Shown piece after piece: positions 5,706 to 22,509 of a stretch of 64,000 bases of DNA. The stretch comes from an uncultured Candidatus Saccharibacteria bacterium (GTDB taxonomy: Bacteria > Patescibacteriota > Minisyncoccia > UBA6257 > UBA11618), in the NCBI GenBank assembly GCA_964373915.1, contig CAYJWP010000001.1:51860-115859 (forward strand). Direction: 5' to 3'. The notes below the pieces were generated by a model. That model searched no databases. It had not been told where the DNA came from and saw only the letters and a list, made by a program, of their open reading frames with translations. How positions within the stretch are numbered: the stretch's first letter is position 1; every line of letters begins with the position of its first letter. A program made the position numbers and the translations under genes.

Positions 5706-7493
5706 ATGGAAAACATTCGTAATTTTGTTATTATCGCTCATATTGACCACGGCAAGTCCACTCTAGCCGACCGCCTGCTGGAAATAACCGGCACGGTGGA
5801 CAAAAGGCATCTCCAACCTCAACATTTAGACCGATTAGAATCGGAAAGAGAAAGGGGAATTACCATTAAAATGGCGCCAGTGCGGATGATTTTTGGGGAT
5901 TATATACTGAATCTCATAGATACTCCCGGCCACAGTGATTTCGCTTATGAAGTTTCCCGAGCTCTGGCAGCCGTGGAGGGGGCGATATTGTTAGTTGATA
6001 TTTCCCAAGGCATTCAGGCGCAGACTTTGGCTAATTTTGAAACGGCTAAAAAAACTGGCCTTAAAATCATCGGCGCTGTTTCTAAAATAGACCTTAATTT
6101 GCCTCAAATAGAAGAAGTTGTTCAGTCCTTGGCCGAATTATTAGAAGTTAGAGAGGATGAAATTCTTAGAGTTTCCGGCAAAACGGGACAGGGCGTGGAA
6201 GAATTATTAGCAGCTGTTATTAAACGGTTTCCGCCGTCGCGCATTATTCCATCAAAAGAAGAAATTTCCCGCGCTCTCATTTTTGATTCTCTTTATGACG
6301 AACATAAGGGAGTAATTGCCTTTATAAGAATTTTTAACGGCAGTTTTAAAGGTAACGAGCAAATATCATTTCTAGCCACAAAATCAACCATTAAAGCTAA
6401 AGAGGTTGGATATTTTAATCCTCAATTGAAACCAGCTAAAGAATTATTCACGGGCGAGATTGGCTATATTGCCACTGGCCTTAAACAGCCGGAAAAAATA
6501 AAAATAGGTGATACAATTATTAATGTCAAAAATCAAAATCCAAATGTCAAAACTTTAGCCCTTCAGGGCTATAGAGAGCCTCAACCCGTAGTCTTTGTTT
6601 CTTTTTATCCCGAGGAAAATGATGACTATGATGATTTGAAAATTTCTTTGGCTAAATTAAAGCTTAACGACGCCTCCTTGTTTTTTGAGCCGGAAAGCAG
6701 CGAGCTTTTAGGCAGGGGATTTAAGGGAGGATTTTTAGGGAGATTGCACTTTGAGATTACCGCCGAACGGCTGGAAAAAGAATTTAATTTAAAAACAATC
6801 CAGAGCTTCCCCTCAGTTTCCTATCAGGTTAAGACCAGAAAGGGAGTGGAGGAAATCAGCAGTCCCAAGGATTTTCCCTATGATTATCTTGAAGTTTTAG
6901 AGCCAGTAATTCGGGTGGAAATCATTACCCCGCCTCAGTATTTAGGAGGCGTTTTGTCGCTCAAGCAGTTTTACAGAATAGGGGATTTTGAGACCAGAAA
7001 CATCGGCAATCGGGTAATTATTAAGGCCAAAATGCCCCTTGCCGACCTGATTAGCGATTTTGATGATAAGTTAAAATCCTTGTCAGAGGGCTACAGCTCT
7101 TTGAGTTATGAAATTATCGGTTATGAAAAAAGTAATCTGGCTAAGATGGAAATATTAATAGCCGGTCATCTTGTTCCCGGCCTGACCAGGATTATTCCAG
7201 CCGAGAGAATTGATCGCGAAGCCCGAACTACCGTGGGAAAACTTAAAGAATTTCTGCCTCGCCAGCAGTTCACTCAGGCGATACAGGCCGCCAGCGGCGG
7301 GCGGATTATTGCCCGTGAAACCATTGCTGCCCTTAAAAAAGATGTCACCGGCTACCTTTACGGCGGCGACCGCACCCGCAAGATGAAGCTTTGGAAGAAA
7401 CAGCAAAAAGGCAAGGCCAAACTTAAAGAACGGGCAGAATCTTCAGCTGTTCATATTCCGCCCTCTGTGTTTAAGGAGCTGCTGAAGAAATAA
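5706..7493 (+). CDS. lepA: translation elongation factor 4 (LepA)
   Basis: 595 aa. G-domain 'IIAHIDHGKSTLADRLLE' and a LepA-type C-terminal domain. Confidence 0.95.
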   Translation: MENIRNFVIIAHIDHGKSTLADRLLEITGTVDKRHLQPQHLDRLESERERGITIKMAPVRMIFGDYILNLIDTPGHSDFAYEVSRALAAVEGAILLVDISQGIQAQTLANFETAKKTGLKIIGAVSKIDLNLPQIEEVVQSLAELLEVREDEILRVSGKTGQGVEELLAAVIKRFPPSRIIPSKEEISRALIFDSLYDEHKGVIAFIRIFNGSFKGNEQISFLATKSTIKAKEVGYFNPQLKPAKELFTGEIGYIATGLKQPEKIKIGDTIINVKNQNPNVKTLALQGYREPQPVVFVSFYPEENDDYDDLKISLAKLKLNDASLFFEPESSELLGRGFKGGFLGRLHFEITAERLEKEFNLKTIQSFPSVSYQVKTRKGVEEISSPKDFPYDYLEVLEPVIRVEIITPPQYLGGVLSLKQFYRIGDFETRNIGNRVIIKAKMPLADLISDFDDKLKSLSEGYSSLSYEIIGYEKSNLAKMEILIAGHLVPGLTRIIPAERIDREARTTVGKLKEFLPRQQFTQAIQAASGGRIIARETIAALKKDVTGYLYGGDRTRKMKLWKKQQKGKAKLKERAESSAVHIPPSVFKELLKK

Positions 7494-7509: not shown

Positions 7510-7540
7510 GGGGAAAGAAAAACCCCCTTAATTAAGGGGG
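7510..7540. terminator. bidirectional rho-independent terminator (two adjacent GC hairpins)
   Basis: 'GGGGaaagaaaaaCCCCC' followed by the palindrome 'CCCCCTTAATTAAGGGGG'. T-tract on the minus strand. Overlaps the stop of the minus-strand small ORF. Confidence 0.7.
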
Positions 7541-7719
7541 CGGTCGGCTGGCCTCATCATGTCCAGCAGGTGATCCATCTCGCTAACGAGAGAGTCACTT
7601 TTTTGGATTAAATCGCTGTTCATTCGCTCGATTTGGCTGTGCTGGTCGGTATAAACCAATAACAGCCATCCGGCAGATGCAGCGAAAACGCAAGCCAACA
7701 GCACTAAAAGGTGTTTCAT
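7528..7719 (-). CDS. small signal-peptide/membrane protein (63 aa)
   Basis: Canonical minus-strand promoter (TTGACT-17-TATAAT at 7760-7787) and SD 'AAGGAG' 9 nt upstream of the ATG. Hydrophobic N-terminus 'LLVLLACVFAASAGWLLLV'. Confidence 0.5.
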   Translation of the reverse strand: MKHLLVLLACVFAASAGWLLLVYTDQHSQIERMNSDLIQKSDSLVSEMDHLLDMMRPADRPLN

Positions 7720-7734
7720 CGCTTTTTTCTCCTT

Positions 7735-7763
7735 TTCAAAAACACCACTCTGTCTGGTATTAT
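7735..7763 (+). promoter_or_regulatory. sigma70-like promoter (TTCAAA-17-TATTAT) for the 7800 gene
   Basis: Hexamers seen directly. Face-to-face with the minus-strand promoter, with overlapping -10 elements. Confidence 0.5.
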
Positions 7764-7787
7764 AGCATTATTATTATGATAAGTCAA
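7760..7787 (-). promoter_or_regulatory. sigma70 consensus promoter (TTGACT-17-TATAAT) for the 63-aa ORF
   Basis: Read on the minus strand as 'TTGACTtatcataataataatgcTATAAT'. Confidence 0.6.
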
Positions 7788-7799
7788 TATAAGCAAATA

Positions 7800-9239
7800 A
7801 TGGCGCTTTTAACGGCGGCGGGCATTTTTCTGCTTGTTGGAGCTTGGCTTTTAAATTCTTATACCGTTCAATCTCAAACCGAAGAGGAGCGGCTGATTAA
7901 TTCAATCAATTCCGCTATCAACGATCTCATTAATAATAGTGAAATAAGCCAAAAAATTAGGGATCTGGTCGGCAAGCCCACTGAAAACAAATCTTATTTT
8001 GATGATTACCTTCCTCCCCAGATATTTAATGACCTGATTAGCCATGGCCAAAAAGCTCAGGGTAGTTTTAGTATAATATTTGGCTTATTAAATGAAATTA
8101 GACAATTGTCTGGTAATTGCCAAACAGACGATGATAAAAAAAAGCTTATTAATAAAATTGAAGAACTCAACAACAACCTTTCTTTATTTATTGGTCATTT
8201 AACTAACTATCGCAAAGTTCTTGTGGAGGCGAGCTCCCTACTGGGCGATCCCGGTTTTTTTTCACCTTTTAAAAAGGGCTTTAAGGATAGGTTGAATCAA
8301 TCGGCTAGTGAATTAGGCCAAAGAATTACCGCTCTGCAAAAACGTCAAGCCGATCTTAATAGTCAAGTGCAATTGGGTAATCATATTAAATTAGCCGATA
8401 AATTATGTATAAAAAATGGCAATGGGCCTCCGCCTATTCCTCCGCCGGACAACGATATAAAAAATGAAGATGTCGCTGAGTGCGTTAAAGATTTTAACAA
8501 GCTTGCCGAATTAGCGAGAAAAATTTTATTCCACAGAACAACTCTTGACCAAAACACCTCAACTAATCTTAATTTTTTAATTACTAATCTGGAAGCCGCC
8601 GGCAGAAACTTCCCCTCACATTTTTCTTCATTACAGTCGGCTATTAATCGGCTAAATAAATTACTCTTATCGCCTTCTTTACGCCAAGTGGAAAAAAATG
8701 CTTTGGGGAGTTATTTAGCGTCTCTTAAACAATGCTTAAAAGTGACCAATGGAGAACAGCCTCCACCTCCTGCCGACAATGAAGATAGCGCCAGAATCAA
8801 AGAGTGCCACAAAAAGTACGACCGGCAATTGGTAGATTTTTTAGGGAAACTTCCCGCCTACTTTAGAATCCAGGCTCAAGAGCTAAAGAATAAGGCTGAT
8901 TCATTCCGGCAGGCCGCTTTTAAAGACCATAAAGATAGAATTAATCTGCTGGCGGACGGTCTTTTAAGTCTCGCTGACGAGATTGGGGGTTGGATTAAAG
9001 CTTGGGGAAGTAAGGTTCCTTTTAAAAATACCTACGAATTGATTGACGGCCTTATTGCCAAGTTTGAATACATTAAAGCCTACTATGAAGGCATAATAAA
9101 ATCTTTTCCTCTTCCTCCTAATCATCCTCAATCAATCGCTATGAAAAAGTATTATCAAAAAAAGATAGATTACGCCGATACAGTCATAAATGATCTTAAA
9201 AAATTAAAGGAAGACAAGCGAAAATGCGCCAACTGTTAG
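7800..9239 (+). CDS. hypothetical signal-anchored secreted protein, helical, with an internal duplicated Cys/Pro motif
   Basis: Start taken at ATG 7800 (MALLTAAGIFLLVGAWLL = TM/signal); the 7677 start is an ORF-caller extension. Duplicated module 'C..NG..PPP.PP.DN(D/E)...EC...'. Ends in 'KRKCANC'. Confidence 0.6.
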   Translation: MALLTAAGIFLLVGAWLLNSYTVQSQTEEERLINSINSAINDLINNSEISQKIRDLVGKPTENKSYFDDYLPPQIFNDLISHGQKAQGSFSIIFGLLNEIRQLSGNCQTDDDKKKLINKIEELNNNLSLFIGHLTNYRKVLVEASSLLGDPGFFSPFKKGFKDRLNQSASELGQRITALQKRQADLNSQVQLGNHIKLADKLCIKNGNGPPPIPPPDNDIKNEDVAECVKDFNKLAELARKILFHRTTLDQNTSTNLNFLITNLEAAGRNFPSHFSSLQSAINRLNKLLLSPSLRQVEKNALGSYLASLKQCLKVTNGEQPPPPADNEDSARIKECHKKYDRQLVDFLGKLPAYFRIQAQELKNKADSFRQAAFKDHKDRINLLADGLLSLADEIGGWIKAWGSKVPFKNTYELIDGLIAKFEYIKAYYEGIIKSFPLPPNHPQSIAMKKYYQKKIDYADTVINDLKKLKEDKRKCANC

Positions 9240-9262
9240 TTAACGTGTTATAATTAAAACAA

Positions 9263-10150
9263 GTGGATATTAAATTTTTAAAATGGTTTGCGGTAATCGT
9301 TGTTTTTGTTCTGGCTCTGACGGTGGCTTTTACAAATCTATCCGTTTTGGGACAAGGCGTACCCCGGCAAAATAAGTGCGTTTTGACAATACTTGAGGCG
9401 GTAAGCGTTCCTCCCGATCTCCAAAAATCCGAAGCAAAATTTCATATAAAATACGAGATAAAAAATCACAAAGACGAAGGCCTGTGGTCTATGCCTGCCA
9501 CAGAAATAAAATGGCCGAATATCATATCTCATTTCAAAAATAAATATCCGGATTGTGTTATAGACAATCAGGCGGCGACTGTCACCTATATTAAACCCAG
9601 AACAGGGCAAGATCCCCCCGACCCCCGTCACAGGGGCAATGTTATAATGAATTTTGATATTAAAGATCACAGGCCGGGGAAGAGAACTAGAAGAATTAGC
9701 ACTCCCGGAGGGCGGTCTTTAATTGATTTTTTAAATAAAGAATACCCGGGTTATACTATCAAACTTACCACTCCTGGCTTTAGAGGTCCGGCTTTAGCGC
9801 CTCCGGAAGATCAGGCGCCGGTTTGCCGCTCCATCGGCACCCTTTATACCAGCCCTAACTGGGAAAATGACCCCGACGTTTTTACCTGTCCCCCGTGCAG
9901 GCAATTAGAGAATGATTTAAATAGTTTTACTAAAAAGCTGATTGGAGATAATGCGGATCTTAGAGATTTGCTTGTAAAAACAGGCTTTGACTGGAAAAAA
10001 TTCGTTAACATCAAAATCGGGTTTCCTCCCGATGAACAAGGTATTCCCCATTTAAATGGTGTCAGCGATTCAGGAGTGATAGCATCTCAAATTAAAAAAG
10101 CTATGCAGGATTATATTGCAGAATTACGGCGGTGGAACACAAACAGATAA
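9263..10150 (+). CDS. hypothetical signal-anchored secreted protein (Cys-containing)
   Basis: N-terminal TM 'WFAVIVVFVLALTVAF'. Several Cys including 'FTCPPCRQLEN'. No recognisable domain. Confidence 0.55.
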   Translation: MDIKFLKWFAVIVVFVLALTVAFTNLSVLGQGVPRQNKCVLTILEAVSVPPDLQKSEAKFHIKYEIKNHKDEGLWSMPATEIKWPNIISHFKNKYPDCVIDNQAATVTYIKPRTGQDPPDPRHRGNVIMNFDIKDHRPGKRTRRISTPGGRSLIDFLNKEYPGYTIKLTTPGFRGPALAPPEDQAPVCRSIGTLYTSPNWENDPDVFTCPPCRQLENDLNSFTKKLIGDNADLRDLLVKTGFDWKKFVNIKIGFPPDEQGIPHLNGVSDSGVIASQIKKAMQDYIAELRRWNTNR

Positions 10151-10159
10151 AGAAAATAG

Positions 10160-11233
10160 ATGAGCAAAAATAATTTAAAATGGCTTGTAATTTTCGTGTC
10201 ATTGATTTTGGGGATGGCGATTGTTTTGCCTAAAACTAATTTTATTCTAGCCCAGTTTATTCCCAGTGGAACTATTGTCAGCCAAGAAAAAATACCCGGC
10301 ACTGACAATTATAAAGTAAAGATAGATTACGGCGGCATCACTATAGAAATAACGGCTTCGGCAAGAGAGTCGTCTAGGGAGTTTTTAGAAAACTTTTTAG
10401 GCGTCAAGTTAGTTGTTCCGCCAGCCTCTTCTCCGGAGCCAGTGCCCGCAAAGGATTGCCCGGAAACTTTTAAGATTGATTTAACCAATCGAATTAGGTT
10501 TGGGGTAAACGGAAAAAGAATTGACGAGGAAGTGGCTACATCAAATTTTCAATTATCACACGATAAAAATGACCATGAGGCCAGCCATGGCATCAATAGC
10601 ACGGCTCGCGCTATATACGCAGGCGTTCGTGAGGGTACCGGCGTGCATATTGGTTTTGACGAAAATGGCAAAGCCATTGTTACTTGGGTTGATGAGCCTA
10701 GGGGCAATATTTTGGGACTTATTGCTAGTAATGTTGTTCCCGATTTTTTTAAGAATCCGCCGGGTTTGATGAATCGTTACCGAACTTATTTAACAGGCGC
10801 CCGCCAGCGCAACATTGATGAAATCTCTAATTTGTTTGATGAATGGGGCGCTTACAATGCCGGAGGAGAAGCTCGTTTGAGAATGAGAATCAATGGGCAA
10901 AAAAAAGCTCTCGATGGAACGGATTTGAATCTGGCAAACATAATTGAGGGTCCGGCGGATTATATAATCATTGGTGGATCGGTTGCCCTTTATTTAAGAA
11001 ACAACGACCCAAGGTATTTTCAAAGCGCTCAATTTAAAAACTTTTTTAAATTCCAAATAGAAAAAAGCGCAACGCTTATCAATAAAGGCTTGGCAACCGG
11101 TGATATTTCTGATGCCGGCCATACTAATTTTATGTTAGATAATCTAAGAAAGAATCCCCAAGCGGCTAGGATTCGTCAAGTTTTAGTAGAACTTTACGGC
11201 CGCGACTGGACGCAAAGAGTCTTAGGTTTTTAA
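10160..11233 (+). CDS. hypothetical signal-anchored secreted protein
   Basis: N-terminal TM 'WLVIFVSLILGMAIVL'. 357 aa. No recognisable domain. Confidence 0.55.
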   Translation: MSKNNLKWLVIFVSLILGMAIVLPKTNFILAQFIPSGTIVSQEKIPGTDNYKVKIDYGGITIEITASARESSREFLENFLGVKLVVPPASSPEPVPAKDCPETFKIDLTNRIRFGVNGKRIDEEVATSNFQLSHDKNDHEASHGINSTARAIYAGVREGTGVHIGFDENGKAIVTWVDEPRGNILGLIASNVVPDFFKNPPGLMNRYRTYLTGARQRNIDEISNLFDEWGAYNAGGEARLRMRINGQKKALDGTDLNLANIIEGPADYIIIGGSVALYLRNNDPRYFQSAQFKNFFKFQIEKSATLINKGLATGDISDAGHTNFMLDNLRKNPQAARIRQVLVELYGRDWTQRVLGF

Positions 11234-11254
11234 AATTTATGTTAGCATAAACAT

Positions 11255-12397
11255 ATGCGGGAAAATAAAAAACATTTTTTATTTTTATTATTGCTTTTAG
11301 TAGCGTTCGTCTTAGTTTTATTTTTTATTTTATTTAGTTCCAAGTTACAGTTTTCTTATCAAGCCTTAAATGCAGCGCAAGAAGATCAAAATATATTAAG
11401 AGGAAGTCAATTTGTTAGCGTTGGCGACGGTTTAGGACAGGTTGTCAACGTTGTCAGGGGGGGCGGTGATCAATTTCCTAATGAATCTTACTATTGGCTA
11501 TACATTATTGCTCTATCACAATCATGCCAAAGGGAGGGGGGGTGGTTACCTTGGGTCTTTGGAGGAGGTAGCGGTTCTTCTTTAGAATCCAAACAACTCT
11601 TTGCAAGTATTTTTGATGTTCTATATAGTTTTTTTAATAAAACCAGTAAAGTTTTTGCTCTCCAGGGCGGCGGTTTTGGCCCCCCAGTTGTTGATCCACC
11701 CCCAGATCCGATTCCTATCCCGGCTCCTGCTCCATCTTCAAGAAGAGACATAATAACTATAGGAGTTGGTTTACAATATTGTTGGGGAGGAAGTGCTCCT
11801 ATTCGTCCATTTGTGGATTTTCTTTCGCGGACGGGAAGAAGGCTGTTGCCAATGATTATAGAAGTAGGGGGCAATCTTCGGTATTGGCCCATGGAGGGAA
11901 CTCGGGATGTAGCGTGGCTGGTCAAGCCAGTTGATTCATCAGCTGGCGCTGGGTTGAATATGATAATAGTTAGAGTTGACAAAAGCACACCAGTTAAATC
12001 ATCCAAACGTCCTGGATTTTTCCCAACACTGAAATCGGTAATACCTACCCCAGTTGATCCCCAAACGTTTGCTGATCCAGTAGGTGGTTCTATAACAATT
12101 AGGTTTCCTTTTGGAAAAAGAGATGGAGGTAGATATTTAGCAGAATTTAAGGAGCGTTGCGCTTTGGCTAATGAGCCACTTATAGAAAATGGCGTTGAAT
12201 ACTATAAACTGTCTAGTTTGCCAAATTTAAAAAAATACCGAATGAAAGACCTGCCAATAGGTAGTAAAGTTTACCAGAATGGAAAGGAGGTTGGCGTTTA
12301 TGTAGGCAACGGAAAAGTTTTACCATCCCGATACATTTTGCAGTTTTATAATGCTGTGGCAAAGCAAGTACCCAAGCCTCCTATTATTAGTAGATGA
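11255..12397 (+). CDS. hypothetical signal-anchored secreted protein with a Pro-rich linker
   Basis: N-terminal TM 'FLFLLLLLVAFVLVLFFILF', linker 'PPVVDPPPDPIPIPAPAPS', and a C-terminal 'VYQNGKEVGVYVGNGKVL' segment faintly reminiscent of NlpC/P60-type motifs (weak). Confidence 0.55.
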   Translation: MRENKKHFLFLLLLLVAFVLVLFFILFSSKLQFSYQALNAAQEDQNILRGSQFVSVGDGLGQVVNVVRGGGDQFPNESYYWLYIIALSQSCQREGGWLPWVFGGGSGSSLESKQLFASIFDVLYSFFNKTSKVFALQGGGFGPPVVDPPPDPIPIPAPAPSSRRDIITIGVGLQYCWGGSAPIRPFVDFLSRTGRRLLPMIIEVGGNLRYWPMEGTRDVAWLVKPVDSSAGAGLNMIIVRVDKSTPVKSSKRPGFFPTLKSVIPTPVDPQTFADPVGGSITIRFPFGKRDGGRYLAEFKERCALANEPLIENGVEYYKLSSLPNLKKYRMKDLPIGSKVYQNGKEVGVYVGNGKVLPSRYILQFYNAVAKQVPKPPIISR

Positions 12398-12660
12398 GGC
12401 TTGCTATCTCTTTAGTTACAATAATCAGTATAACCGTGATGGGCTTTCAGCTTTTCCGCCTTTATGGCCAGAAATCAAACTTAGAAAAAAAATTAGAAGC
12501 TATTAACTCCCAAATCAAGCCTTTAGTTGATGAAAATAAAAATGTTTTAGCCGACATCAATTATTTTCAGAATCCTAACAATCTTGAAAAAGAAGCGCGC
12601 GCGCAGTTAAACTATGTTCGGCCGGGAGAAAAGATGATTATCGTGATTCCTCAACCATGA
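12394..12660 (+). CDS. septum formation initiator family protein (FtsB/DivIC-like)
   Basis: 88 aa: TM helix, coiled coil, then 'EKEARAQLNYVRPGEKMIIV', the characteristic FtsB/DivIC C-terminal motif. Confidence 0.65.
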   Translation: MRLAISLVTIISITVMGFQLFRLYGQKSNLEKKLEAINSQIKPLVDENKNVLADINYFQNPNNLEKEARAQLNYVRPGEKMIIVIPQP

Positions 12661-13208: not shown

Positions 13209-13282
13209 GCGAGATTAGTACAGTGGCAGTACGCTTGCTTCCCAAGCAAGAGACGCGAGTTCGATTCTCGTATCTCGCTCCA
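13209..13282 (+). tRNA. tRNA-Gly (anticodon CCC)
   Basis: Cloverleaf folded by hand. Acceptor GCGAGAT/ATCTCGC, D-arm GTAC-AGTGGCA-GTAC, anticodon loop TTCCCAA, T-arm GCGAG-TTCGATT-CTCGT, discriminator U, encoded CCA. Confidence 0.9.
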
Positions 13283-13285
13283 AGC

Positions 13286-13313
13286 AAAAGGGGGCTGACA
13301 GCCCCCTTTTTTT
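13286..13313 (+). terminator. rho-independent terminator after tRNA-Gly
   Basis: 'AAAGGGGGCTGACAGCCCCCTTTTTTT'. Confidence 0.75.
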
Positions 13314-13336
13314 GTGCTATAATTCAATCTATTCTA

Positions 13337-13408
13337 GCCGGAGTAGCTCAGTGGCAGAGCGGTGCTTTCGTAAAGCAAAGATCGCGAGTTCGATTCTCGC
13401 CTCCGGCT
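13337..13408 (+). tRNA. tRNA-Thr (anticodon CGT)
   Basis: Acceptor GCCGGAG/CTCCGGC, D-arm GCTC-AGTGGCA-GAGC, anticodon loop TTCGTAA, T-arm GCGAG-TTCGATT-CTCGC. CCA not encoded. Confidence 0.85.
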
Positions 13409-13435
13409 CAAAATTCCTACGGAATTTTGCAATAT

Positions 13436-14158
13436 ATGCGTCCACTATCAGATAAATACGACCAAAACAACGCCCATCTTTCTGTTCATGCCGGTGCTGG
13501 CGGAGACGATGCTAAGGATTGGGCCGGCATGCTTTTTAAAATGTATTTCAAATATGCCGGACGCAGGGGTTGGCAAACTATGGCGATTGATGATTTAACT
13601 ATGGATATCAAAGGAGATTATGCTTATGGAACTTTAAAAAAGGAAGCTGGCGTCCATCGGCTAGTGCGCATCTCTCCTTTTTCTACAAAAAAACTGCGCC
13701 ACACCTCATTTGCTTTAGTGGAAGTCCTGCCGGAGCTTCCGGAAATAGAAAGAAAAAAATTGGTTATCCCGGAAGATGATTTAAGGGTGGAAATGTTTCG
13801 CTCCAGCGGACCGGGCGGGCAAAATGTAAATAAGCGGGAAACCGCCGTCAGGGTCATCCACATGCCTAGCGGTTTGAGCGCCGCTTCGCAGGTAGAGCGC
13901 TCGCAAGCGCAAAATAAGGAAAAGGCGGTTAATCTGCTCAAAGCTCGCCTCATTAAGGTTATGGAGGAAAGGCGCATGCAGGAATTAAGTAATTTACAAA
14001 CTAAAATTGTGCCGGAGTGGGGTAGCCAGATTCGCTCTTATGTCCTGCACCCCTACAAGCAGGTTAAAGACCATCGCACCAAGGCTGTTAGCCACAATCC
14101 GGACAATGTTTTAGACGGTGACTTGGATAAGTTTATTGAATCGGAACTGGAAATTTGA
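13436..14158 (+). CDS. prfB: peptide chain release factor 2, N-terminally truncated (domains 2-4 only; domain 1 absent)
   Basis: 'HAGAGGDDAKDW', codon-recognition tripeptide 'SPF', 'SGPGGQNVNKRETAVRVIHMPSG' (GGQ), 'WGSQIRSYVLHPY'. The first ATG after tRNA-Thr sits about 15 aa before the 'HAGAGG' block. TTG 13427 is an alternative start. The 13223 ORF extension runs through the tRNAs and is spurious. Confidence 0.8.
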   Translation: MRPLSDKYDQNNAHLSVHAGAGGDDAKDWAGMLFKMYFKYAGRRGWQTMAIDDLTMDIKGDYAYGTLKKEAGVHRLVRISPFSTKKLRHTSFALVEVLPELPEIERKKLVIPEDDLRVEMFRSSGPGGQNVNKRETAVRVIHMPSGLSAASQVERSQAQNKEKAVNLLKARLIKVMEERRMQELSNLQTKIVPEWGSQIRSYVLHPYKQVKDHRTKAVSHNPDNVLDGDLDKFIESELEI

Positions 14159-17452: not shown

Positions 17453-18592
17453 GTGGATAAGTTTGCTCGGTACGACATCTTTTTTTACGGAGTGGCAATG
17501 TTTCTAGCCGGAGTTTTGCTTTCTAGTTTAGGCATAAGTTTTTGGATTATTGCCGGCCTGGTAATTTTTTTAGCTTTAGCTTCCCGAATGTCATCTTTAA
17601 GCCCGTTGCTGATATTAGTTTTAGCCGGCTCTCTTTATTACTCATGGCGCATCTCTATGCCTCTGGAAATCTCTTTTGGCAAAGAAATTTTTGGATGGCT
17701 TTTAAACATTAAAGAGGGGATTATTGAGGCGCATCGGCGGCTCTTAGGCTCGGAGCAAGCGGCTTTTTTATCCGGCATTACCATCGGCCATCGTTATGGA
17801 TTTTCTCAAAATTTTCTGGAACGGCTTTCTTTAAGCGGCACCCGCCACGTAGTAGTGCTTTCGGGCTCTAATCTTACAATTCTCATTCTTATAATTATGC
17901 GGCTCCGCAGCTCTTTTCTTTCAAAAAAGTTTGCTTTTGCCCTTTCTTTTTTAACCGTTCTGGCCCTTGTGGCTATGACCGGCTTTGAAGTTTCCGCCGT
18001 GCGCGCCTCCTTAATGGCTTTTGTTTTCGGTATAGCCACTCAAAGCGAGCGCCTTTACAGCCCCCGTAATTCTATAGCTCTGGCAGGTTTAATTTTAATT
18101 CTCGTCAATCCTCAAAACCTTGTTTTTGATATCGGCTTCCAGCTTTCCTTTATGGCTATTCTTGGAGTAGCCTATATTTTACCTGCTTTAAAAAACGCTC
18201 TGCGGATAAAAACTTTTGGCGGGCTTGATTGGCGTGAAGCGGCCCTTGGAACAATCGCCGCCCAAACAGCAGTCGCGCCTATTTTAATCGCTAACTTCTC
18301 TAACTTCACTTTGACATCCTTTATCGCTAACGCTCTTATTTTGGCGGTGGTGCCGCCAACAATGATTGTTGGTTTTATTCTGGCGCTAGCCTACTGGCTG
18401 TTTTATCCGGCGGCGATTGTTTTAAGCTGGCTGGCGTCTTTCTTGCTCGGTTATCAGATTTTTGTTATAAATATTTTTTCTCGGATTTATCTGCCCTTTA
18501 ATCCTGATTTAGGATTTTTAGGAATCGCTATTTATTACGCCGTTGTTTTTATTTTTATCGCCAAGTTTTATGGAAAAAGAGCCGAATTATAA
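17453..18592 (+). CDS. comEC: ComEC/Rec2 DNA-internalization competence protein, membrane competence domain
   Basis: Multi-TM protein. 'LSGITIGHRYGFSQNFLERLSLSGTRHVVVLSGSNLTIL' matches the ComEC competence-domain signature. Confidence 0.8.
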   Translation: MDKFARYDIFFYGVAMFLAGVLLSSLGISFWIIAGLVIFLALASRMSSLSPLLILVLAGSLYYSWRISMPLEISFGKEIFGWLLNIKEGIIEAHRRLLGSEQAAFLSGITIGHRYGFSQNFLERLSLSGTRHVVVLSGSNLTILILIIMRLRSSFLSKKFAFALSFLTVLALVAMTGFEVSAVRASLMAFVFGIATQSERLYSPRNSIALAGLILILVNPQNLVFDIGFQLSFMAILGVAYILPALKNALRIKTFGGLDWREAALGTIAAQTAVAPILIANFSNFTLTSFIANALILAVVPPTMIVGFILALAYWLFYPAAIVLSWLASFLLGYQIFVINIFSRIYLPFNPDLGFLGIAIYYAVVFIFIAKFYGKRAEL

Positions 18593-19403
18593 AATTTATT
18601 TTTATTTTACTCTTATTATCCTTGCCGGCTTTAACCTATGGTTGTGGCGAGCCGTATTTTTTTCTAGTGGAGACATCAAACCGGCGGTTTATTTTTTTAA
18701 TGTAGGGCAAGGCGACAGCCAACTGATTGCCTTGCCGCCGGTTAACATTCTCATTGATGGAGGGAGAGGAAAAAGAGTTTTAGGAGAATTGGACAAAGTC
18801 TTCAGCGAGTTCAATGGCAAATATATTGATTTAGTAATTGCTACCCATGCCGATATTGACCATTTTGGCGGTCTCAGGGAGGTTGTGAAAAATTATCAAG
18901 TAGGCGCTTTTTTATTTAACGGCAAAGCCAGCAATAATTCCGCTTATTTAGAATTAGTATCGTTAGTAAATAGGGCGGGTATTCCCATTATCAATCTAGC
19001 CGCCAAAGATAAAATAAAATACAACAATGATTATCTAGCCGTTCTTTCTCCGGAAGCTAAAGAAATTTTTTATAACGATGATAATAATTCCAGCTTGGTT
19101 TTAATGTTGAACGCGGGCGGAGAAAAAGCCCTTTTTACTGGAGATATCAGTCTTAAAACTGAGGATAAATTAGCGAGCCGTTACGATTTAACCGCTGATA
19201 TTCTCAAGGTTTCCCATCACGGTTCCAAAAACTCATCCGGCGCTAATTTCTTAAATGATGTTTTGCCTAGAATTAGCGTTATCGGAGTTGGCAGAAACAG
19301 CTACGGCCATCCCCATCCTCTAACTATTGAACGTCTGCAAAAAGCCGGCTCTAAAATCTTTAGAACCGACACGGACGGCGCCATTAAAATTGTTTTAGAT
19401 TAA
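18570..19403 (+). CDS. ComEC C-terminal metallo-beta-lactamase domain protein (separate gene)
   Basis: MBL motifs 'VGQGDS', 'ATHADIDHFGG' (HxHxDH), 'KVSHHGS'. Start taken at ATG 18570 (MEKEPNY...). Overlaps the upstream comEC by about 23 nt. Confidence 0.8.
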   Translation: MEKEPNYKIYFYFTLIILAGFNLWLWRAVFFSSGDIKPAVYFFNVGQGDSQLIALPPVNILIDGGRGKRVLGELDKVFSEFNGKYIDLVIATHADIDHFGGLREVVKNYQVGAFLFNGKASNNSAYLELVSLVNRAGIPIINLAAKDKIKYNNDYLAVLSPEAKEIFYNDDNNSSLVLMLNAGGEKALFTGDISLKTEDKLASRYDLTADILKVSHHGSKNSSGANFLNDVLPRISVIGVGRNSYGHPHPLTIERLQKAGSKIFRTDTDGAIKIVLD

Positions 19404-19409
19404 TTACTT

Positions 19410-20381
19410 ATGAATCGCTGGTTAAAAATATTAATTATTTTGGCGGCTGCCGCCCTGTTTATCCAGGCCTCTGTTTATCTGGCTGTCAATCGGCGAGAGG
19501 CGGGGGAATTGGCGGCGCCCAGCCAGTTTAAAGAGTTGCATCTGGCGGATATTTCTAAAGAAACTAAACCGCCGTCAAAACTGGCAAACTTTCGCCTCTG
19601 TTCTTTTCAGACAAACTCTTTGCCATCCCATCAAGGAGCGGTTTTTAGCAGGATTGCCTGGGCGGGCTCCAGCGAGAACGCCAATGATGAGTGGTTTGAG
19701 ATAAAAAAAATATCAGCGGGGGAGATTAATATTTCCGGCTGGCAGGCTGTTAACAAGAACGAAAGATTAAAAGCGGTGGTCGCTCAAGAAACATTTTTAA
19801 CTGAAAGCAATCCCCTCTATCTCTTGAAAAGAAGCGTCCATTACACAGGGGCGCTGAAAAACAACAACGAAGGACTCCGGCTCTTTGATAAGAATTGCCA
19901 GCTTATTGATGAAGTTTTTGCTGATTCTGATTGGCCGGCAGGGGATAACGAATTAAAACTGGTGATGAAAAGAGCCGGGGACTTATCTTGGTATGATGAC
20001 AGAATAATTCCAGCTTCCCAGCAGGCCCAGAATATAAATAACGGCGCCGCTTCTGTCGTTATTTATGAAATTCAAGCCGGTTCCGAAGTATCCACGAATA
20101 ATGAATATATAAAACTGCGCAATCTCACCGAACAAACTATTAGTTTGGATGGCTGGTCATTAAAGAAAAAGACAGCTTCCGGTAAAGAATATACCCTGGT
20201 TTCTAGCTCAAAATTTACCGGATTGATAACGGCTCAAGGTTTTTTTGTTATTGCCCACAAAGATTATGAAGGCGAGGCAAATTTAAGATACTCCAACACT
20301 TCTAATTCTTTGGCTAATTCCAACAATACAGCAATTATTTACAATAAGAGCGGAAATTTAATCAGCGAGTTTAAGTATTAA
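19410..20381 (+). CDS. lamin-tail-domain (LTD) protein, two LTD copies, signal-anchored
   Basis: 'ANDEWFEIKKISAGEINISGWQ' and 'NNEYIKLRNLTEQTISLDGWSL' match the LTD signature (NE[WY][IV]E[IL]xN ... GW). Immediately downstream of comEC, as is common. Confidence 0.7.
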   Translation: MNRWLKILIILAAAALFIQASVYLAVNRREAGELAAPSQFKELHLADISKETKPPSKLANFRLCSFQTNSLPSHQGAVFSRIAWAGSSENANDEWFEIKKISAGEINISGWQAVNKNERLKAVVAQETFLTESNPLYLLKRSVHYTGALKNNNEGLRLFDKNCQLIDEVFADSDWPAGDNELKLVMKRAGDLSWYDDRIIPASQQAQNINNGAASVVIYEIQAGSEVSTNNEYIKLRNLTEQTISLDGWSLKKKTASGKEYTLVSSSKFTGLITAQGFFVIAHKDYEGEANLRYSNTSNSLANSNNTAIIYNKSGNLISEFKY

Positions 20382-20800
20382 TTATTATAAGTAAGCTCCA
20401 CTCGATCTTTATCTTTCATTAAATAATCGCCAAACTCCGGAGCTTCTTTGCCGTTTACCAGCATTTTTAAATCATTTTTATCTAACTCTTCCCCCCAAAT
20501 CTCAAAAAACTTGGCAAGTTTTGTGTCTTCTTTTCTTACCAATCCGGAAAATTCCATATGGATGGTGCCGTCCGTTTCATGAGTGTGCATTTGTTGGTGC
20601 ACCACTCCCAATCCGATGCCGGCTGGTATCACTCTCGGCACCCCTTTATCGGTGATAGAGAGTTTAGGATGCCAATGTATGCCGTTTTTTGAGACGATAT
20701 CTTCCTCTGGAATAGGCGGGATATTAACCAGATACCAAATAAACCAGCCAACACCCCCCAAAACAATCACCGCCAATAAAACCTTGATAAAAAATCTCAT
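20378..20800 (-). CDS. hypothetical membrane-anchored His-rich protein (paralog of 26079-26642)
   Basis: N-terminal TM, then 'GIHWHP...IPAGIGLG...HTHETDGTIHMEF...FFEIWGEEL'. Last gene of the DsbA/VKOR-like operon. Confidence 0.5.
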   Translation of the reverse strand: MRFFIKVLLAVIVLGGVGWFIWYLVNIPPIPEEDIVSKNGIHWHPKLSITDKGVPRVIPAGIGLGVVHQQMHTHETDGTIHMEFSGLVRKEDTKLAKFFEIWGEELDKNDLKMLVNGKEAPEFGDYLMKDKDRVELTYNN

Positions 20801-20804
20801 ATTT

Positions 20805-21362
20805 TTAATTTAGATTATTATTAATGTTACAAACTTGCAGATTATTAATTTTTTTTGCTGTAAAAATAATTGATGTGCCTAGAATGCCCACGCTCAGCAA
20901 GCCGAACTCACCGCCATTGAGCGGCAGAACATAGATTAGTCCGCCGGCGCCGATTAAAGCTAGTAACGGCCCCAGAACTAATGTGCCGCAAGCGGCGCAA
21001 CCGACGCCAAAGACGCCGCTGACAAAACCCGCTAGACTGCCGGTCACGCCGCTCCTTATAGGCGCGCTTTTTTTCTGCCTCATATAATAAACAACCATAG
21101 CCGTATTAATGCCCAGTAAAACTGCAATCGCTACAGTGTAAGAGGCAGAAAGGGCGGTAAAATTCGTTCCGATGGACGTCATCAAGTTGGCCAAAAAAAT
21201 AACTTTTTCGGAAAAAACCACCATTGGGGAGCTTGTTATCTGCCAGATAAGTCCTAAATTGGGTAACCAAGTGGATAGCGCGAGCATTAACAAAGCAACC
21301 AACGCGGCTAGCGCCAGATAGGTGGCTTTTCTGAAAACCTTATTCAACGCCGAAAAAAGCAT
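20805..21362 (-). CDS. integral membrane protein with an intramembrane CxxC (VKOR/DsbB-like thiol-oxidoreductase partner, inferred)
   Basis: Four to five TM helices. 'GVFGVGCAACGTLVLG' (C-A-A-C) inside a TM helix. Directly downstream of a DsbA-like thioredoxin gene. Confidence 0.45.
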   Translation of the reverse strand: MLFSALNKVFRKATYLALAALVALLMLALSTWLPNLGLIWQITSSPMVVFSEKVIFLANLMTSIGTNFTALSASYTVAIAVLLGINTAMVVYYMRQKKSAPIRSGVTGSLAGFVSGVFGVGCAACGTLVLGPLLALIGAGGLIYVLPLNGGEFGLLSVGILGTSIIFTAKKINNLQVCNINNNLN

Positions 21363-21367
21363 CAGGT

Positions 21368-22090
21368 CTATTTCTCTTTTAGCGCCAACTCAACAACTTG
21401 CCTGATCGCTTCATAGGGCTGAGCGCCGTTGACAGGAAATTTTTTACCGTTAGAGGCAACAACAATACTCCACGGTGTGCCATTGCCGCCGGTAGCTATC
21501 GCGTCTTGCGCATCAGCCTCAATGTGGCCGGCAAACTTACCGCCCTTACTATCATTATCTTTAACCAATTTTTCAAAAGGAACGGGATTAAGCCCGACAT
21601 CTTTGGCTATTTGTACCAATTGAGAAAGTTCTAACTGGTCATTAGATGGCGTAATCTCAAATAACCTGTCTAAATAAGCCCAGAACTTGTCATTACCGCC
21701 CAATTCGCCTGCCAACTCCGCAGCCGCCGCCTCCATGCGGGCTTTGGAATGCAGCTGGTCAAGAGGGAAATGGCGGTAGACCCAAGCCACTTTGCCGTTG
21801 TATTCCTTAACTATTTGCTGGAGAGTCGGGTGAATTCTCTTGCAGAACGGGCACTCGGTATCGGAAAACTCCACTATTTTCACCGGAGCTTTTGAATCGC
21901 CTTTGATATGGTCTTTGCCGGTTATCGGTTTCAAATCATCAAGATTGCCCGTTGGCGGAGGTTCTTGGGGTAAAGCCCCAAGATTAGCTGAGGAACGGCC
22001 GACAGAATACACCACCGCCCCCGAAATAAGCACTCCCGCTATCAAAATTGATATGGGGAGAAAATAATTTCTCTTTTGTTGATTTTCCAT
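21368..22090 (-). CDS. DsbA-family thiol:disulfide oxidoreductase (thioredoxin fold)
   Basis: Active site 'ECPFCKRIHP' (CPFC), signal-anchor N-terminus, thioredoxin-like length. Start taken at internal ATG 22090 (MENQQ...). Confidence 0.8.
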   Translation of the reverse strand: MENQQKRNYFLPISILIAGVLISGAVVYSVGRSSANLGALPQEPPPTGNLDDLKPITGKDHIKGDSKAPVKIVEFSDTECPFCKRIHPTLQQIVKEYNGKVAWVYRHFPLDQLHSKARMEAAAAELAGELGGNDKFWAYLDRLFEITPSNDQLELSQLVQIAKDVGLNPVPFEKLVKDNDSKGGKFAGHIEADAQDAIATGGNGTPWSIVVASNGKKFPVNGAQPYEAIRQVVELALKEK

Positions 22091-22146
22091 TTTGATTTTG
22101 ATGTTAATTTTTATATTATGACTTTTAAAATACCAGCTTATCAAAA

Positions 22147-22509
22147 TTAAGCTAAATTGTACAACCGGCTATGCATAATGCCTTGGCTCAATAAATTACG
22201 AAGCGGGTTAAACAACTTTGAAATTAATTCTTTTTCCCTTGATTGTTTTGCTGGTAATAACTTAAAAATTTTATTTTTTAATTTTTCTTGGTAAAAATAA
22301 AGATTAGTAACCAATAAAAATAATAGGCCAATTATACCAAACAACAAAAACTGATTTTTTGAAGAAATTAAATTAATCGGCGCCAGTTTAAAGAGGCAAG
22401 CCGAATGTTCGGTGCTGATATTTTGTCCAACTGGCTGCAAAAAAGCGCAAAAAGCAACTATTACCAATACAGAAATAAATATGCTTAGAAGTAAGTGATT
22501 ATTAGCCAT
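22147..22509 (-). CDS. hypothetical small membrane protein
   Basis: Two hydrophobic segments. First gene of the minus-strand operon ahead of the dsbA-like gene. Confidence 0.4.
   Translation of the reverse strand: MANNHLLLSIFISVLVIVAFCAFLQPVGQNISTEHSACLFKLAPINLISSKNQFLLFGIIGLLFLLVTNLYFYQEKLKNKIFKLLPAKQSREKELISKLFNPLRNLLSQGIMHSRLYNLA

What the first reader, a model, noticed from the sequence alone, without database searches (positions are those of the whole stretch)
7677..12397. Co-directional cluster of four large signal-anchored secreted proteins of unknown function, with a divergently expressed small protein
Four consecutive genes (480, 295, 357 and 380 aa) each begin with a single N-terminal TM or signal anchor. 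Otherwise they are hydrophilic, with Pro-rich linkers (PPPIPPP, PPPDPIPIPAPAP), scattered Cys pairs, and no housekeeping motifs. The first contains an internal duplication of a 'C..NG..PPPP.DN(D/E)..EC' module. Immediately upstream is a tightly arranged divergent promoter pair with overlapping -10 boxes, driving a 63-aa membrane peptide on the opposite strand. The cluster abuts the ftsB-like gene. In an episymbiotic CPR cell such a block is a candidate surface, adhesion or host-interaction apparatus.
Basis: seen in the sequence. Interest (0 to 1): 0.6.

Follow-up and report, generated by a model that had tools for sequence, protein, structure and literature searches.

The report
Variable secreted-protein island upstream of ftsB
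Four membrane-anchored secreted proteins in a Patescibacteria (CPR) genome form a lineage-specific, fast-changing insert between lepA and ftsB. It is not a conserved apparatus, but it contains a recurring gene pair: a thioredoxin-like protein next to a member of a large undescribed family of probable zinc hydrolases, which phages also carry.

Summary
There are four co-directional ORFs: A 7800-9239, B 9263-10150, C 10160-11233 and D 11255-12397. Each has one N-terminal hydrophobic segment. The Pro-rich linkers, the internal duplication in A, the divergent promoter-like pair and the abutting DivIC/FtsB gene are all present.

In 64 related Patescibacteria loci, lepA is normally followed within about 12-300 bp by ftsB. 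Only the two closest relatives carry multi-gene inserts there, with mostly unrelated secreted proteins. So this is a variable island, not a conserved four-gene apparatus. A and D are orphans.

B and C form a real module.
- C belongs to an unmodelled family: 619 clusters at 50% identity, with no Pfam, NCBIfam, PHROG or PDB match. HExxH, DE, Y and R are near-invariant. AlphaFold confidence is high, but no solved structure shows a similar fold.
- B ends in a CPPC thioredoxin-like domain.
- A secreted CxxC or thioredoxin gene lies just upstream of a C homologue in 7 loci, including a phage-like contig. C homologues also occur on phage and viral contigs.

Most likely mechanism, inferred: a redox partner plus a zinc hydrolase, both anchored outside the membrane, acting on envelope or surface substrates. 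Interest is moderate.

The parts
7528..7719 (-). Divergent 63-aa ORF with one N-terminal hydrophobic segment. It has no homologue.
   Evidence: ORF and hydrophobic segment. AAGGAG lies 8 nt before the ATG. A terminator-like hairpin sits at 7541-7522. No tblastn hit in 80 relatives.
7735..7787 (.). Back-to-back sigma-70-like promoter pair with overlapping -10 hexamers (7758-7764).
   Evidence: Minus strand: TTGACT-17-TATAAT, 11/12 with TG. Plus strand: TTCAAA-17-TATTAT, 9/12 with TG. These are consensus matches only; function was not tested.
7800..9239 (+). Gene A, 479 aa (alternative starts at 7776 and 7677). N-terminal anchor, then a mostly non-hydrophobic protein with a C-terminal CANC motif. 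Its secondary structure was not predicted. Orphan.
   Evidence: No Pfam, NCBIfam, PHROG, PADLOC or PDB hit. No hit in relatives or viral contigs. One weak module match to the first gene of the L004 insert (E = 7e-4, z = 7.7).
8292..8825 (+). Internal duplication in A: residues 165-234 (8292-8501) and 278-342 (8631-8825). Each copy ends in a Cys - Pro-rich loop - Cys element.
   Evidence: local alignment score 76, z = 9.7, 0 of 300 shuffles reach it.
9263..10150 (+). Gene B, 295 aa. N-terminal anchor, a poorly characterised middle region, and a C-terminal CPPC thioredoxin-like domain.
   Evidence: The only hit among 5.8 billion proteins is itself. The single-sequence AlphaFold model was unusable (pLDDT 43).
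9818..10147 (+). B-type CxxC domain (residues about 186-295). CPPC is at 9887-9898 and the GIPHL putative cis-Pro loop follows.
   Evidence: Homologous to the C-terminus of the L004 701-aa protein (E = 3e-9), to the L083 upstream gene (5e-8) and to the L106 502-aa protein (CGPC, 1.4e-9 to L083). A 5-sequence profile against PDB gave 16 thioredoxin-fold proteins among 18 hits. The best was 4fyu_A at E = 0.0019, with CxxC and GIP aligned.
10160..11233 (+). Gene C, 357 aa. N-terminal anchor, a small beta-beta-beta-alpha module, a Pro-rich linker, and a C-terminal HExxH domain.
   Evidence: AlphaFold2 with 77 sequences gave mean pLDDT 82.3, mostly above 90 in the C-terminal domain.
10559..11230 (+). 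Conserved domain of an undescribed family (residues about 134-357). HEASH is at 10574-10588 and FDEWGAY at residues 226-232.
   Evidence: Exhaustive profile search: 619 representatives at E <= 1e-3 and 274 at E <= 1e-10. Conservation among aligned members: H139 126/126, E140 125/126, H143 125/126, E228 148/149, D227 141/149, Y232 143/149, R339 141/142. No Pfam, NCBIfam, PHROG or PDB model matches. No structural neighbour.
11255..12397 (+). Gene D, 380 aa. Very hydrophobic N-terminal anchor, Gly-rich and Pro-rich linker (PPPDPIPIPAPAP), and a C-terminal region of unknown fold. Orphan.
   Evidence: Only a self hit among 5.8 billion proteins. No hit in relatives, viral contigs or PDB.
12394..12660 (+). 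ftsB/divIC-like gene, the conserved right flank of the insert. Its start codon overlaps D's stop codon (ATGA).
   Evidence: Pfam DivIC 1.1e-10. Found in 64 of 80 relatives, usually directly after lepA.
5706..7493 (+). lepA, the conserved left flank of the insert.
   Evidence: 57-70% identity to 80 Patescibacteria genomes.

Best explanation
The block is a lineage-specific, rapidly turning-over accessory island inserted at the ancestral lepA|ftsB junction of a Paceibacteria-class Patescibacteria genome.

Expression (inferred): it appears to bring its own promoter at 7735-7763. It is probably read through into ftsB and the next gene, because the intergenic gaps are short, D's stop overlaps ftsB's start, and there is no convincing plus-strand terminator.

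Localisation (inferred from one N-terminal hydrophobic segment each): all four products are probably inserted through Sec as N-terminally anchored proteins, with their bulk outside the membrane.

The functional core is the B-C pair.
- B carries a thioredoxin-like CPPC domain that would carry out thiol-disulfide exchange outside the cell.
- C carries a domain of a large undescribed family. Its invariant H-E-x-x-H, D-E, Y and R residues fit a zinc hydrolase: the two His plus a downstream acidic residue would bind the metal, and the motif Glu would act as general base.
- I infer that the pair acts together on disulfide-containing envelope or surface proteins, either the cell's own or those of a host or competitor.

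A is a repeat protein with Cys-bounded Pro-rich loops. D has a Pro-rich stalk and an unknown head. Both are orphan, fast-evolving surface-exposed passengers of unknown specificity.

Shown here: the insertion polymorphism, the family membership of C, the B-C neighbourhood and the motif conservation. Inferred: export, metal binding, catalysis, substrate and co-transcription.
For: Insertion hotspot:
- The lepA-to-ftsB gap is 12-300 bp in most of 64 relatives.
- It is 8.2 kb in L004, 6.1 kb in L005 and 4.9 kb here.
- Other relatives carry unrelated small inserts at the same junction.
- The L004 and L005 inserts also consist of co-directional genes for N-terminally anchored proteins, with the last gene abutting or overlapping ftsB.

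C family:
- 619 representatives in the exhaustive search.
- Near-invariant HExxH, DE, Y and R residues.
- 99 of 142 members have an N-terminal hydrophobic segment and 41 have a lipobox-like motif.
- Other members carry extracellular domains or protease domains: Big_7, CARDB, FG-GAP, Trypsin, Peptidase_M10, HtrA.
- A trypsin domain is fused to the C domain in P0055, and a trypsin gene is adjacent in L103.

B-C linkage:
- A B-type CxxC domain gene lies directly upstream of a C homologue in the window, L004, L083 and L106.
- L085 has a related protein with CVSC in that position.
- Proteins matching Pfam Thioredoxin lie upstream in L084 and L095.

B fold: the profile search returns thioredoxin-fold proteins almost exclusively.

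The genome also encodes a DsbA-like protein at 21368-22144, so extracytoplasmic disulfide chemistry is available.
Against: - I could not inspect metal-site geometry, so the hydrolase assignment rests on motif conservation alone.
- B matches no Pfam thioredoxin model, and its structure prediction failed.
- The C domain has no conserved Cys, so the reason for a redox partner is unexplained.
- One viral member has HYxxH instead of HExxH.
- A and D contribute no functional evidence.
- Co-transcription and export were not measured.
- Many other orphan membrane-anchored proteins occur in the window, so the clustering may have no functional meaning.
Confidence: 0.5

Rival explanations
1. One reading: a dedicated, conserved surface, adhesion or host-interaction apparatus in which the four proteins work together as one machine.
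For: All four are predicted to be exported and anchored. They are tightly packed and co-directional. The Pro-rich stalks and Cys-bounded loops look like surface-display architecture. The organism belongs to Patescibacteria, many of which are episymbionts (general knowledge).
Against: The block is not syntenic. 61 of 64 relatives have no multi-gene insert at this site, and the two that do share at most B and C. A and D have no homologues at all. No adhesin, lectin, Ig-like or pilin domain was detected.
Confidence: 0.12
2. An accessory operon for the cell's own envelope or division. The cassette would be expressed with ftsB and supply a wall- or envelope-remodelling hydrolase (C), a redox helper (B) and structural partners for septation.
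For: In the window and in L004 the last cassette gene overlaps the ftsB start by 4 nt, and in L005 it directly abuts ftsB. No convincing plus-strand terminator lies between A and ftsB. ftsE and ftsX lie 1.5 kb downstream.
Against: Most relatives divide without any such genes at this locus. The cassette contents differ between the three genomes. C shows no similarity to any known peptidoglycan hydrolase family. The coupling to ftsB may simply reflect genome compaction.
Confidence: 0.18
3. Phage-derived or mobile cargo, for example a moron, a superinfection-exclusion set or a lysis-related set, left at an insertion hotspot.
For: C-family genes occur in phage genomes. L100 has a terminase and a portal gene. 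L090 is a 546-kb contig with phage-type RNR and SbcCD genes. L095 has a ligase, and a thioredoxin gene directly upstream of its C homologue. Four IMG/VR contigs also carry the family. The lepA|ftsB junction accepts varied inserts.
Against: There is no integrase, no flanking direct or inverted repeats, and no paralogues elsewhere in the window. GC content (0.38-0.42) matches the genome. A-D have no PHROG or PADLOC hits. tblastn against 50,697 phage records found nothing. Neighbours of the phage copies gave no lysis annotation.
Confidence: 0.1
4. The ORFs, at least A and D, are non-functional or decaying sequence rather than genes.
For: A and D have no homologues. Neither has a Shine-Dalgarno site.
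Against: Open frames of 380-479 codons in 41% GC DNA are very unlikely by chance. Shine-Dalgarno sites are rare throughout this genome (10 of 67 genes). Each ORF has a well-formed signal-anchor. A contains a conserved internal repeat. B and C have homologues.
Confidence: 0.03

Closest known systems
Flexible ('metagenomic') genomic islands that encode cell-surface proteins, such as the cell-wall-associated island of Haloquadratum walsbyi (PMC4535781, found)
   Same: A fixed chromosomal site between conserved genes carries different sets of secreted or surface proteins in related lineages. There are no obvious mobility genes. The cargo diverges quickly.
   Different: The comparison here is between species or genera (LepA about 70% identity), not strains. 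The island is only 5-8 kb. It is fused transcriptionally to a cell-division gene. No glycosylation or S-layer genes are present.
Gluzincin-type zinc metallopeptidases (HExxH plus a downstream Glu, as in thermolysin-like families; from general knowledge)
   Same: An invariant HExxH lies at the start of a confidently predicted helix. An invariant acidic pair (D227-E228) starts a later helix, with invariant Tyr and Arg nearby. The family is secreted or lipoprotein-anchored, and it is associated with other proteases.
   Different: No sequence model and no solved structure matches. The beta-hairpin follows the HExxH helix rather than preceding it. The spacing between the motif and the DE pair is 85 residues. 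Activity and metal binding are untested.
Membrane-anchored extracytoplasmic thioredoxin-like proteins (ResA/CcmG/TlpA type) and WCPPC tryparedoxin/nucleoredoxin-type thioredoxins (from general knowledge; PDB hits)
   Same: An N-terminal anchor, a CxxC (CPPC) that aligns with the thioredoxin active-site CxxC, and a GIP loop aligned with the cis-Pro loop of thioredoxin 4fyu_A.
   Different: No Pfam thioredoxin model is matched. The domain is short, sits at the C-terminus of a longer protein, and has an insertion after the first helix. No CcdA/DsbD electron supplier was identified. The partnership with an HExxH protein is not a feature of the known systems.

Membership tests
Zincin / gluzincin metallopeptidases (protein C) | HExxH motif conserved across the family | tested here: met
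   Among aligned members, H139 is kept in 126/126, E140 in 125/126 and H143 in 125/126. The motif is also conserved in the 3-, 7- and 77-sequence alignments.
Zincin / gluzincin metallopeptidases (protein C) | A third metal ligand (Glu or Asp) on a downstream helix | tested here: inconclusive
   D227 (141/149) and E228 (148/149) are near-invariant and lie at the start of helix 223-244. I could not read the model coordinates, so their proximity to the two His residues is unverified.
Zincin / gluzincin metallopeptidases (protein C) | Zincin fold recognisable by structure comparison | tested here: not met
Zincin / gluzincin metallopeptidases (protein C) | Match to a curated peptidase family model | tested here: not met
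   C matches no Pfam, NCBIfam or PHROG model, and the core domain of 77 family members matches none in Pfam or NCBIfam.
Zincin / gluzincin metallopeptidases (protein C) | Zinc binding and hydrolytic activity | not testable with these tools
   This needs biochemistry.
Thioredoxin-fold oxidoreductases (C-terminal domain of protein B) | A CxxC active site following a beta-strand, at the N-terminus of a helix | tested here: met
   CPPC at residues 209-212 follows the IGTLYT segment. It is conserved as CPPC, CGPC or CVSC in 5 homologues and aligns with the WCPPC of thioredoxin 4fyu_A. The strand and helix assignments come from that alignment, not from a structure model.
Thioredoxin-fold oxidoreductases (C-terminal domain of protein B) | A cis-Pro loop downstream of the active site | tested here: met
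   GIP is invariant in the window, L004 and L083 sequences. In L106 it is SIP, and the more divergent L085 sequence lacks it. It aligns with the GIPML of 4fyu_A. This is evidence at the sequence level only.
Thioredoxin-fold oxidoreductases (C-terminal domain of protein B) | Significant match to thioredoxin family models or structures | tested here: inconclusive
   No Pfam hit. With the profile, 16 of 18 PDB hits are thioredoxin-fold, but the best E-value is only 0.0019. hhalign to the neighbouring thioredoxins gave 84% probability over 18 columns. The AlphaFold model was unusable (pLDDT 43).
Flexible genomic island / insertion hotspot | Presence/absence and content polymorphism between conserved flanking genes | tested here: met
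   The lepA-to-ftsB gap is mostly 12-300 bp in 64 relatives, against 4.9, 6.1 and 8.2 kb in three genomes whose cargo is largely unrelated.
Flexible genomic island / insertion hotspot | Mobility signatures: integrase, flanking repeats, atypical composition | tested here: not met
   No integrase-like ORF, no flanking repeats, and GC content like the rest of the window.
Prophage or phage lysis cassette | Phage structural, replication or lysis genes in the block | tested here: not met
   No PHROG hits for A-D. No match in 50,697 phage records.
Anti-phage defence systems (PADLOC) | Match to a defence protein model | tested here: not met
   The only hit is a chance-level one, E = 0.018.

The most novel reading that the evidence does not exclude
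The C domain defines a new fold of secreted zinc hydrolase. Together with a secreted thioredoxin-like partner it would form a two-component 'reduce-then-cut' module that Patescibacteria and phages use to attack disulfide-stabilised cell-envelope or surface proteins. The partner is usually encoded next to the C gene, and in one viral contig it may be fused to it. In this reading the lepA|ftsB island is one display site for such weapons in an episymbiont.
Probability: 0.2. Interest if true: 0.65.

Novelty: new variant of a known kind. Interest (0 to 1): 0.4.

Why it matters
The four-gene block itself is ordinary for a CPR genome. These genomes are full of orphan membrane-anchored proteins, and this block is not conserved.

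Two things are worth keeping.
- The lepA|ftsB junction is a natural hotspot. Three related lineages have each loaded different sets of exported proteins there, directly upstream of a division gene. That gives a compact place to study how episymbiont surfaces diversify.
- The block led to a sizeable protein family (at least 619 clusters at 50% identity) found in diverse bacteria and in phages. The family has a catalytic-looking invariant HExxH/DE/Y/R signature, a confident predicted structure with no solved-structure neighbour, and no database model. It also recurs next to secreted thioredoxins.

If the family proves to be a new hydrolase class acting on cell envelopes, it would be relevant to phage lysis, to symbiont-host contact, and to annotating several hundred protein clusters now labelled hypothetical.

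Tried and rejected
Searches on A-D that found nothing:
- Pfam, NCBIfam, PHROGs and PADLOC.
- PDB sequence searches for A, D and the C family.

Structure work:
- The single-sequence AlphaFold model of B failed (pLDDT 43).

Homologue searches:
- The 5.8-billion-protein search returned only self hits for B and D. For C it returned one remote hit besides itself.
- A and D were not found on viral contigs.
- tblastn of C-family members against GenBank phage records found nothing.

Ideas I dropped:
- Positional 'orthology' of D with the last gene of the L004 or L005 inserts, and of A with L4_643 or L5_489: no similarity above shuffles.
- The phage C-family genes sitting in lysis cassettes: their neighbours have no PHROG or Pfam lysis annotation.
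- The N-terminal CPAC segment of the L108 fusion protein being a thioredoxin domain: a PDB sequence search did not confirm it.
- A mobile-element origin: no flanking repeats, no paralogues and no composition shift.
- A DGR or pilin interpretation: there is no reverse transcriptase and no prepilin motif in the block (read from the sequences).

Full report
**1. What is in the sequence**

The region holds four tightly packed plus-strand ORFs:
- A: longest ORF from 7677 (520 aa). The 479-aa form starting at 7800 is the sequence held in the public protein collection. An ATG at 7776 is also possible.
- B: 9263-10150, 295 aa.
- C: 10160-11233, 357 aa.
- D: 11255-12397, 380 aa.

The intergenic gaps are 23, 9 and 21 nt. 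D's stop codon overlaps the start of the next gene (12394-12660) by 4 nt. That gene matches Pfam DivIC/FtsB at 1e-10. Upstream lies lepA (5706-7493).

Each of A-D has exactly one hydrophobic segment, at the N-terminus. The internal duplication in A is real: residues 165-234 against 278-342 give z = 9.7, and none of 300 shuffles reaches the score.

A consensus scan finds a strong minus-strand promoter-like site, TTGACT-17-TATAAT (11/12 matches, with an upstream TG), and a weaker plus-strand one, TTCAAA-17-TATTAT (9/12, with TG). Their -10 hexamers overlap at 7758-7764. The 63-aa minus-strand ORF (7528-7719) has an AAGGAG ribosome-binding site, which is unusual here because only 10 of 67 genes have one. 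A terminator-like hairpin overlaps its 3' end.

First, 26 of 67 ORFs in the window carry an N-terminal hydrophobic segment, so four in a row is not statistically remarkable. Second, the total number of promoter-like matches in the region equals the shuffle expectation.

**2. Database status of the four proteins**

None matches Pfam, NCBIfam, PHROGs or PADLOC. All four are singletons at 90% identity in a 15-billion-protein collection, and they come from one 152.7-kb NCBI contig. D and B find only themselves among 5.8 billion proteins. C finds itself and one remote hit. A has no relatives among 80 related genomes or on viral contigs, and no PDB match.

**3. Synteny test**

I used LepA as an anchor and fetched 80 loci from GTDB species representatives. 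All are Patescibacteria: MAGs labelled Paceibacteria, Harrisonbacteria or Parcubacteria group. LepA identity is 70% or less.

Of these, 64 loci carry both lepA and ftsB. In most, ftsB follows lepA after only 12-300 bp, with the 182-aa downstream gene behind it. Four loci have ftsB on the opposite strand, and a few carry unrelated single-gene inserts: a pilin-like gene in L045, a GIY-YIG gene in L077, and others.

Only the two closest relatives have multi-gene inserts at the junction:
- L004 (8.2 kb): proteins of 414, 643, 701, 409 and 423 aa.
- L005 (6.1 kb): proteins of 489, 243, 366, 342 and 492 aa.

All ten of these proteins have one N-terminal hydrophobic segment, and many are Pro-rich. 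The last gene overlaps or abuts ftsB, as in the window.

The content is largely non-homologous. L4_409 is a C homologue (37% identity, E = 3e-54). The C-terminus of L4_701 matches the C-terminal domain of B (E = 3e-9). A shows only a weak shared module with L4_414 (E = 7e-4, z = 7.7). D matches nothing, and L005 shares nothing detectable. L5_366 is a Trypsin_2 protease.

There are no flanking repeats, no paralogues elsewhere in the window and no compositional anomaly. The block is therefore a variable island at an insertion hotspot. It is not a conserved four-gene apparatus.

**4. Protein C**

The alignment of C, L4_409 and the remote hit P0002 shows an invariant HExxH (H139, E140, H143) and an FDEWGAY segment.

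An exhaustive HMMER search of 1.84 billion cluster representatives with a two-sequence profile found 619 proteins at E <= 1e-3 and 274 at E <= 1e-10. Among the top 150, wherever the position is aligned:
- H139 is kept in 126/126, E140 in 125/126 and H143 in 125/126.
- E228 is kept in 148/149, D227 in 141/149 and Y232 in 143/149.
- Y210 is kept in 147/149 and R339 in 141/142.

Of 142 complete members, 99 have an N-terminal hydrophobic segment and 41 have a lipobox-like motif. No Pfam or NCBIfam model covers the domain. The accessory domains in longer members are extracellular or proteolytic: Big_7, CARDB, FG-GAP, Trypsin, Peptidase_M10, HtrA-type and MYXO-CTERM. A trypsin domain is fused to the C domain in P0055. 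A trypsin gene sits directly upstream of the 781-aa member in L103.

AlphaFold2 with 77 sequences gave mean pLDDT 82, mostly above 90 across the C-terminal domain. HExxH lies at the start of helix 138-152. A beta-hairpin follows, and D227-E228 lie at the start of helix 223-244.

The family also occurs in phage genomes:
- L100 has terminase and portal genes.
- L090 is a 546-kb contig with phage-type RNR and SbcCD genes.
- L095 has a DNA ligase gene.
- Four IMG/VR contigs carry the family.

My reading is that C belongs to an undescribed family of exported hydrolases, probably zinc-dependent. The motif evidence is strong. The fold test for zincin membership was not met, so I do not file C as a member of any known peptidase clan.

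**5. Protein B and the B-C pair**

B's C-terminal domain (residues about 186-295) carries CPPC and a GIPHL loop. Related domains with CPPC, CGPC or CVSC lie in the gene immediately upstream of a C homologue in L004, L083 (42%-identical C homologue P0015), L106 (4-nt overlap with P0040) and L085.

In L084 (two genes upstream) and L095 (directly upstream), the protein preceding the C homologue is a signal-peptide protein that matches Pfam Thioredoxin above threshold (1.4e-9 and about 1e-9).

A five-sequence profile of the B-type domain retrieves almost only thioredoxin-fold proteins from PDB: 16 of 18 hits. The best is 4fyu_A at E = 0.0019, with CxxC aligned to WCPPC and GIP aligned to the cis-Pro loop. 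B alone matches no Pfam thioredoxin model. Its single-sequence structure prediction failed (pLDDT 43), so I treat the fold assignment as probable rather than proven.

One viral protein (L108, 371 aa) has a signal peptide, a CPAC-containing segment and a full C domain in a single chain. A PDB sequence search did not confirm the thioredoxin nature of that segment, and its motif reads HYATH rather than HExxH.

Taken together, seven loci pair a secreted CxxC or thioredoxin protein with a C-family protein. That is the best functional clue in this finding. The C domain has no conserved cysteine, so the redox partner is more likely to act on a shared substrate than on C itself. The window also encodes a DsbA-like protein at 21368-22144.

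**6. Mechanism**

Shown here: the insertion polymorphism, the C family and its invariant residues, the B-C neighbourhood, and the predicted anchors.

Inferred:
- Transcription starts at the 7735-7763 promoter, with read-through into ftsB.
- All four proteins are exported through Sec as N-terminally anchored ectoproteins.
- B carries out thiol-disulfide exchange.
- C carries out metal-dependent hydrolysis.
- The two act jointly on disulfide-containing envelope or surface proteins.

A and D remain orphans.

**7. Novelty and verdict**

The four-gene cluster as such is ordinary for a CPR genome and is not conserved. The hotspot and the thioredoxin-HExxH module from an undescribed, phage-shared family are moderately interesting. 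I rate the finding as a new variant of a known kind, with interest 0.4.

Noticed in passing
window 13209-14158: A release-factor gene (13436-14158, 240 aa) follows tRNA-Gly and tRNA-Thr directly. It covers only positions 92-194 of the Pfam PCRF profile, plus the RF-1 domain. So it lacks the N-terminal part found in normal RF1/RF2 proteins.
   Followed up: partly
window 9246-9254 and many gene starts across the window: An extended -10 element (TGTTATAAT) ends 8 nt before B's GTG start. Several other genes also have a TATAAT-like hexamer just upstream of the start codon. Shine-Dalgarno motifs are rare (10 of 67 genes), which suggests widespread leaderless or short-leader mRNAs.
   Followed up: partly
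window 21368-22144 (-), with neighbours 20378-22509: A DsbA-like membrane-anchored protein (Thioredoxin_4 3.9e-17, DSBA 1.6e-13) sits in a run of small N-terminally anchored proteins that have no Pfam hit. This suggests an extracytoplasmic disulfide-forming system in this genome.
   Followed up: partly
window 17453-19403: ComEC appears as two overlapping ORFs. The Competence domain is in 17453-18592 and the metallo-beta-lactamase domain in 18543-19403. An LTD-domain protein follows at 19410-20381.
   Followed up: no
L045 11820-12533; L077 2031-2315; L021, L064, L076 (lepA|ftsB junction): Other relatives carry unrelated single-gene inserts at the same junction, for example a type IV pilin-like protein (GFTLLELL motif) and a GIY-YIG-like protein. 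The site therefore looks like a general insertion hotspot.
   Followed up: partly
L108 5245-6360 (IMG/VR UViG_3300005613_000108): A viral 371-aa protein combines a signal peptide, a CPAC-containing segment and a full C-family domain. Its motif reads HYATH, with Tyr in place of the catalytic Glu. It may be an inactive or altered member, or a fusion of the two partners.
   Followed up: partly
L085 5738-7563; L087 3-1415: C-family domains occur as tandem duplicates, either as two adjacent genes or as two HExxH copies in one protein.
   Followed up: no
L004 11962-17513: Three proteins of the L004 insert (414, 643 and 701 aa) share a paralogous module (E = 5e-5 to 4e-3) that also weakly matches A. 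Both the 643-aa protein and A end in a C-terminal CxxC.
   Followed up: partly
window 9377-9560 (B residues 39-94) and 10271-10399 (C residues 38-80): Both models show a small beta-beta-beta-alpha unit immediately after the membrane anchor. B appears to have a second copy. This may be a shared anchor-proximal module, but confidence in the B model is low.
   Followed up: no
L001/L002 1102-5760 and L102: In a non-CPR lineage the C-family lipoprotein P0002 sits at the end of a row of four small Cys-rich or Pro-rich proteins, two of them with lipoprotein-type signals. The flank is conserved (FAD_binding_6/NMO genes) and is shared with L102.
   Followed up: no
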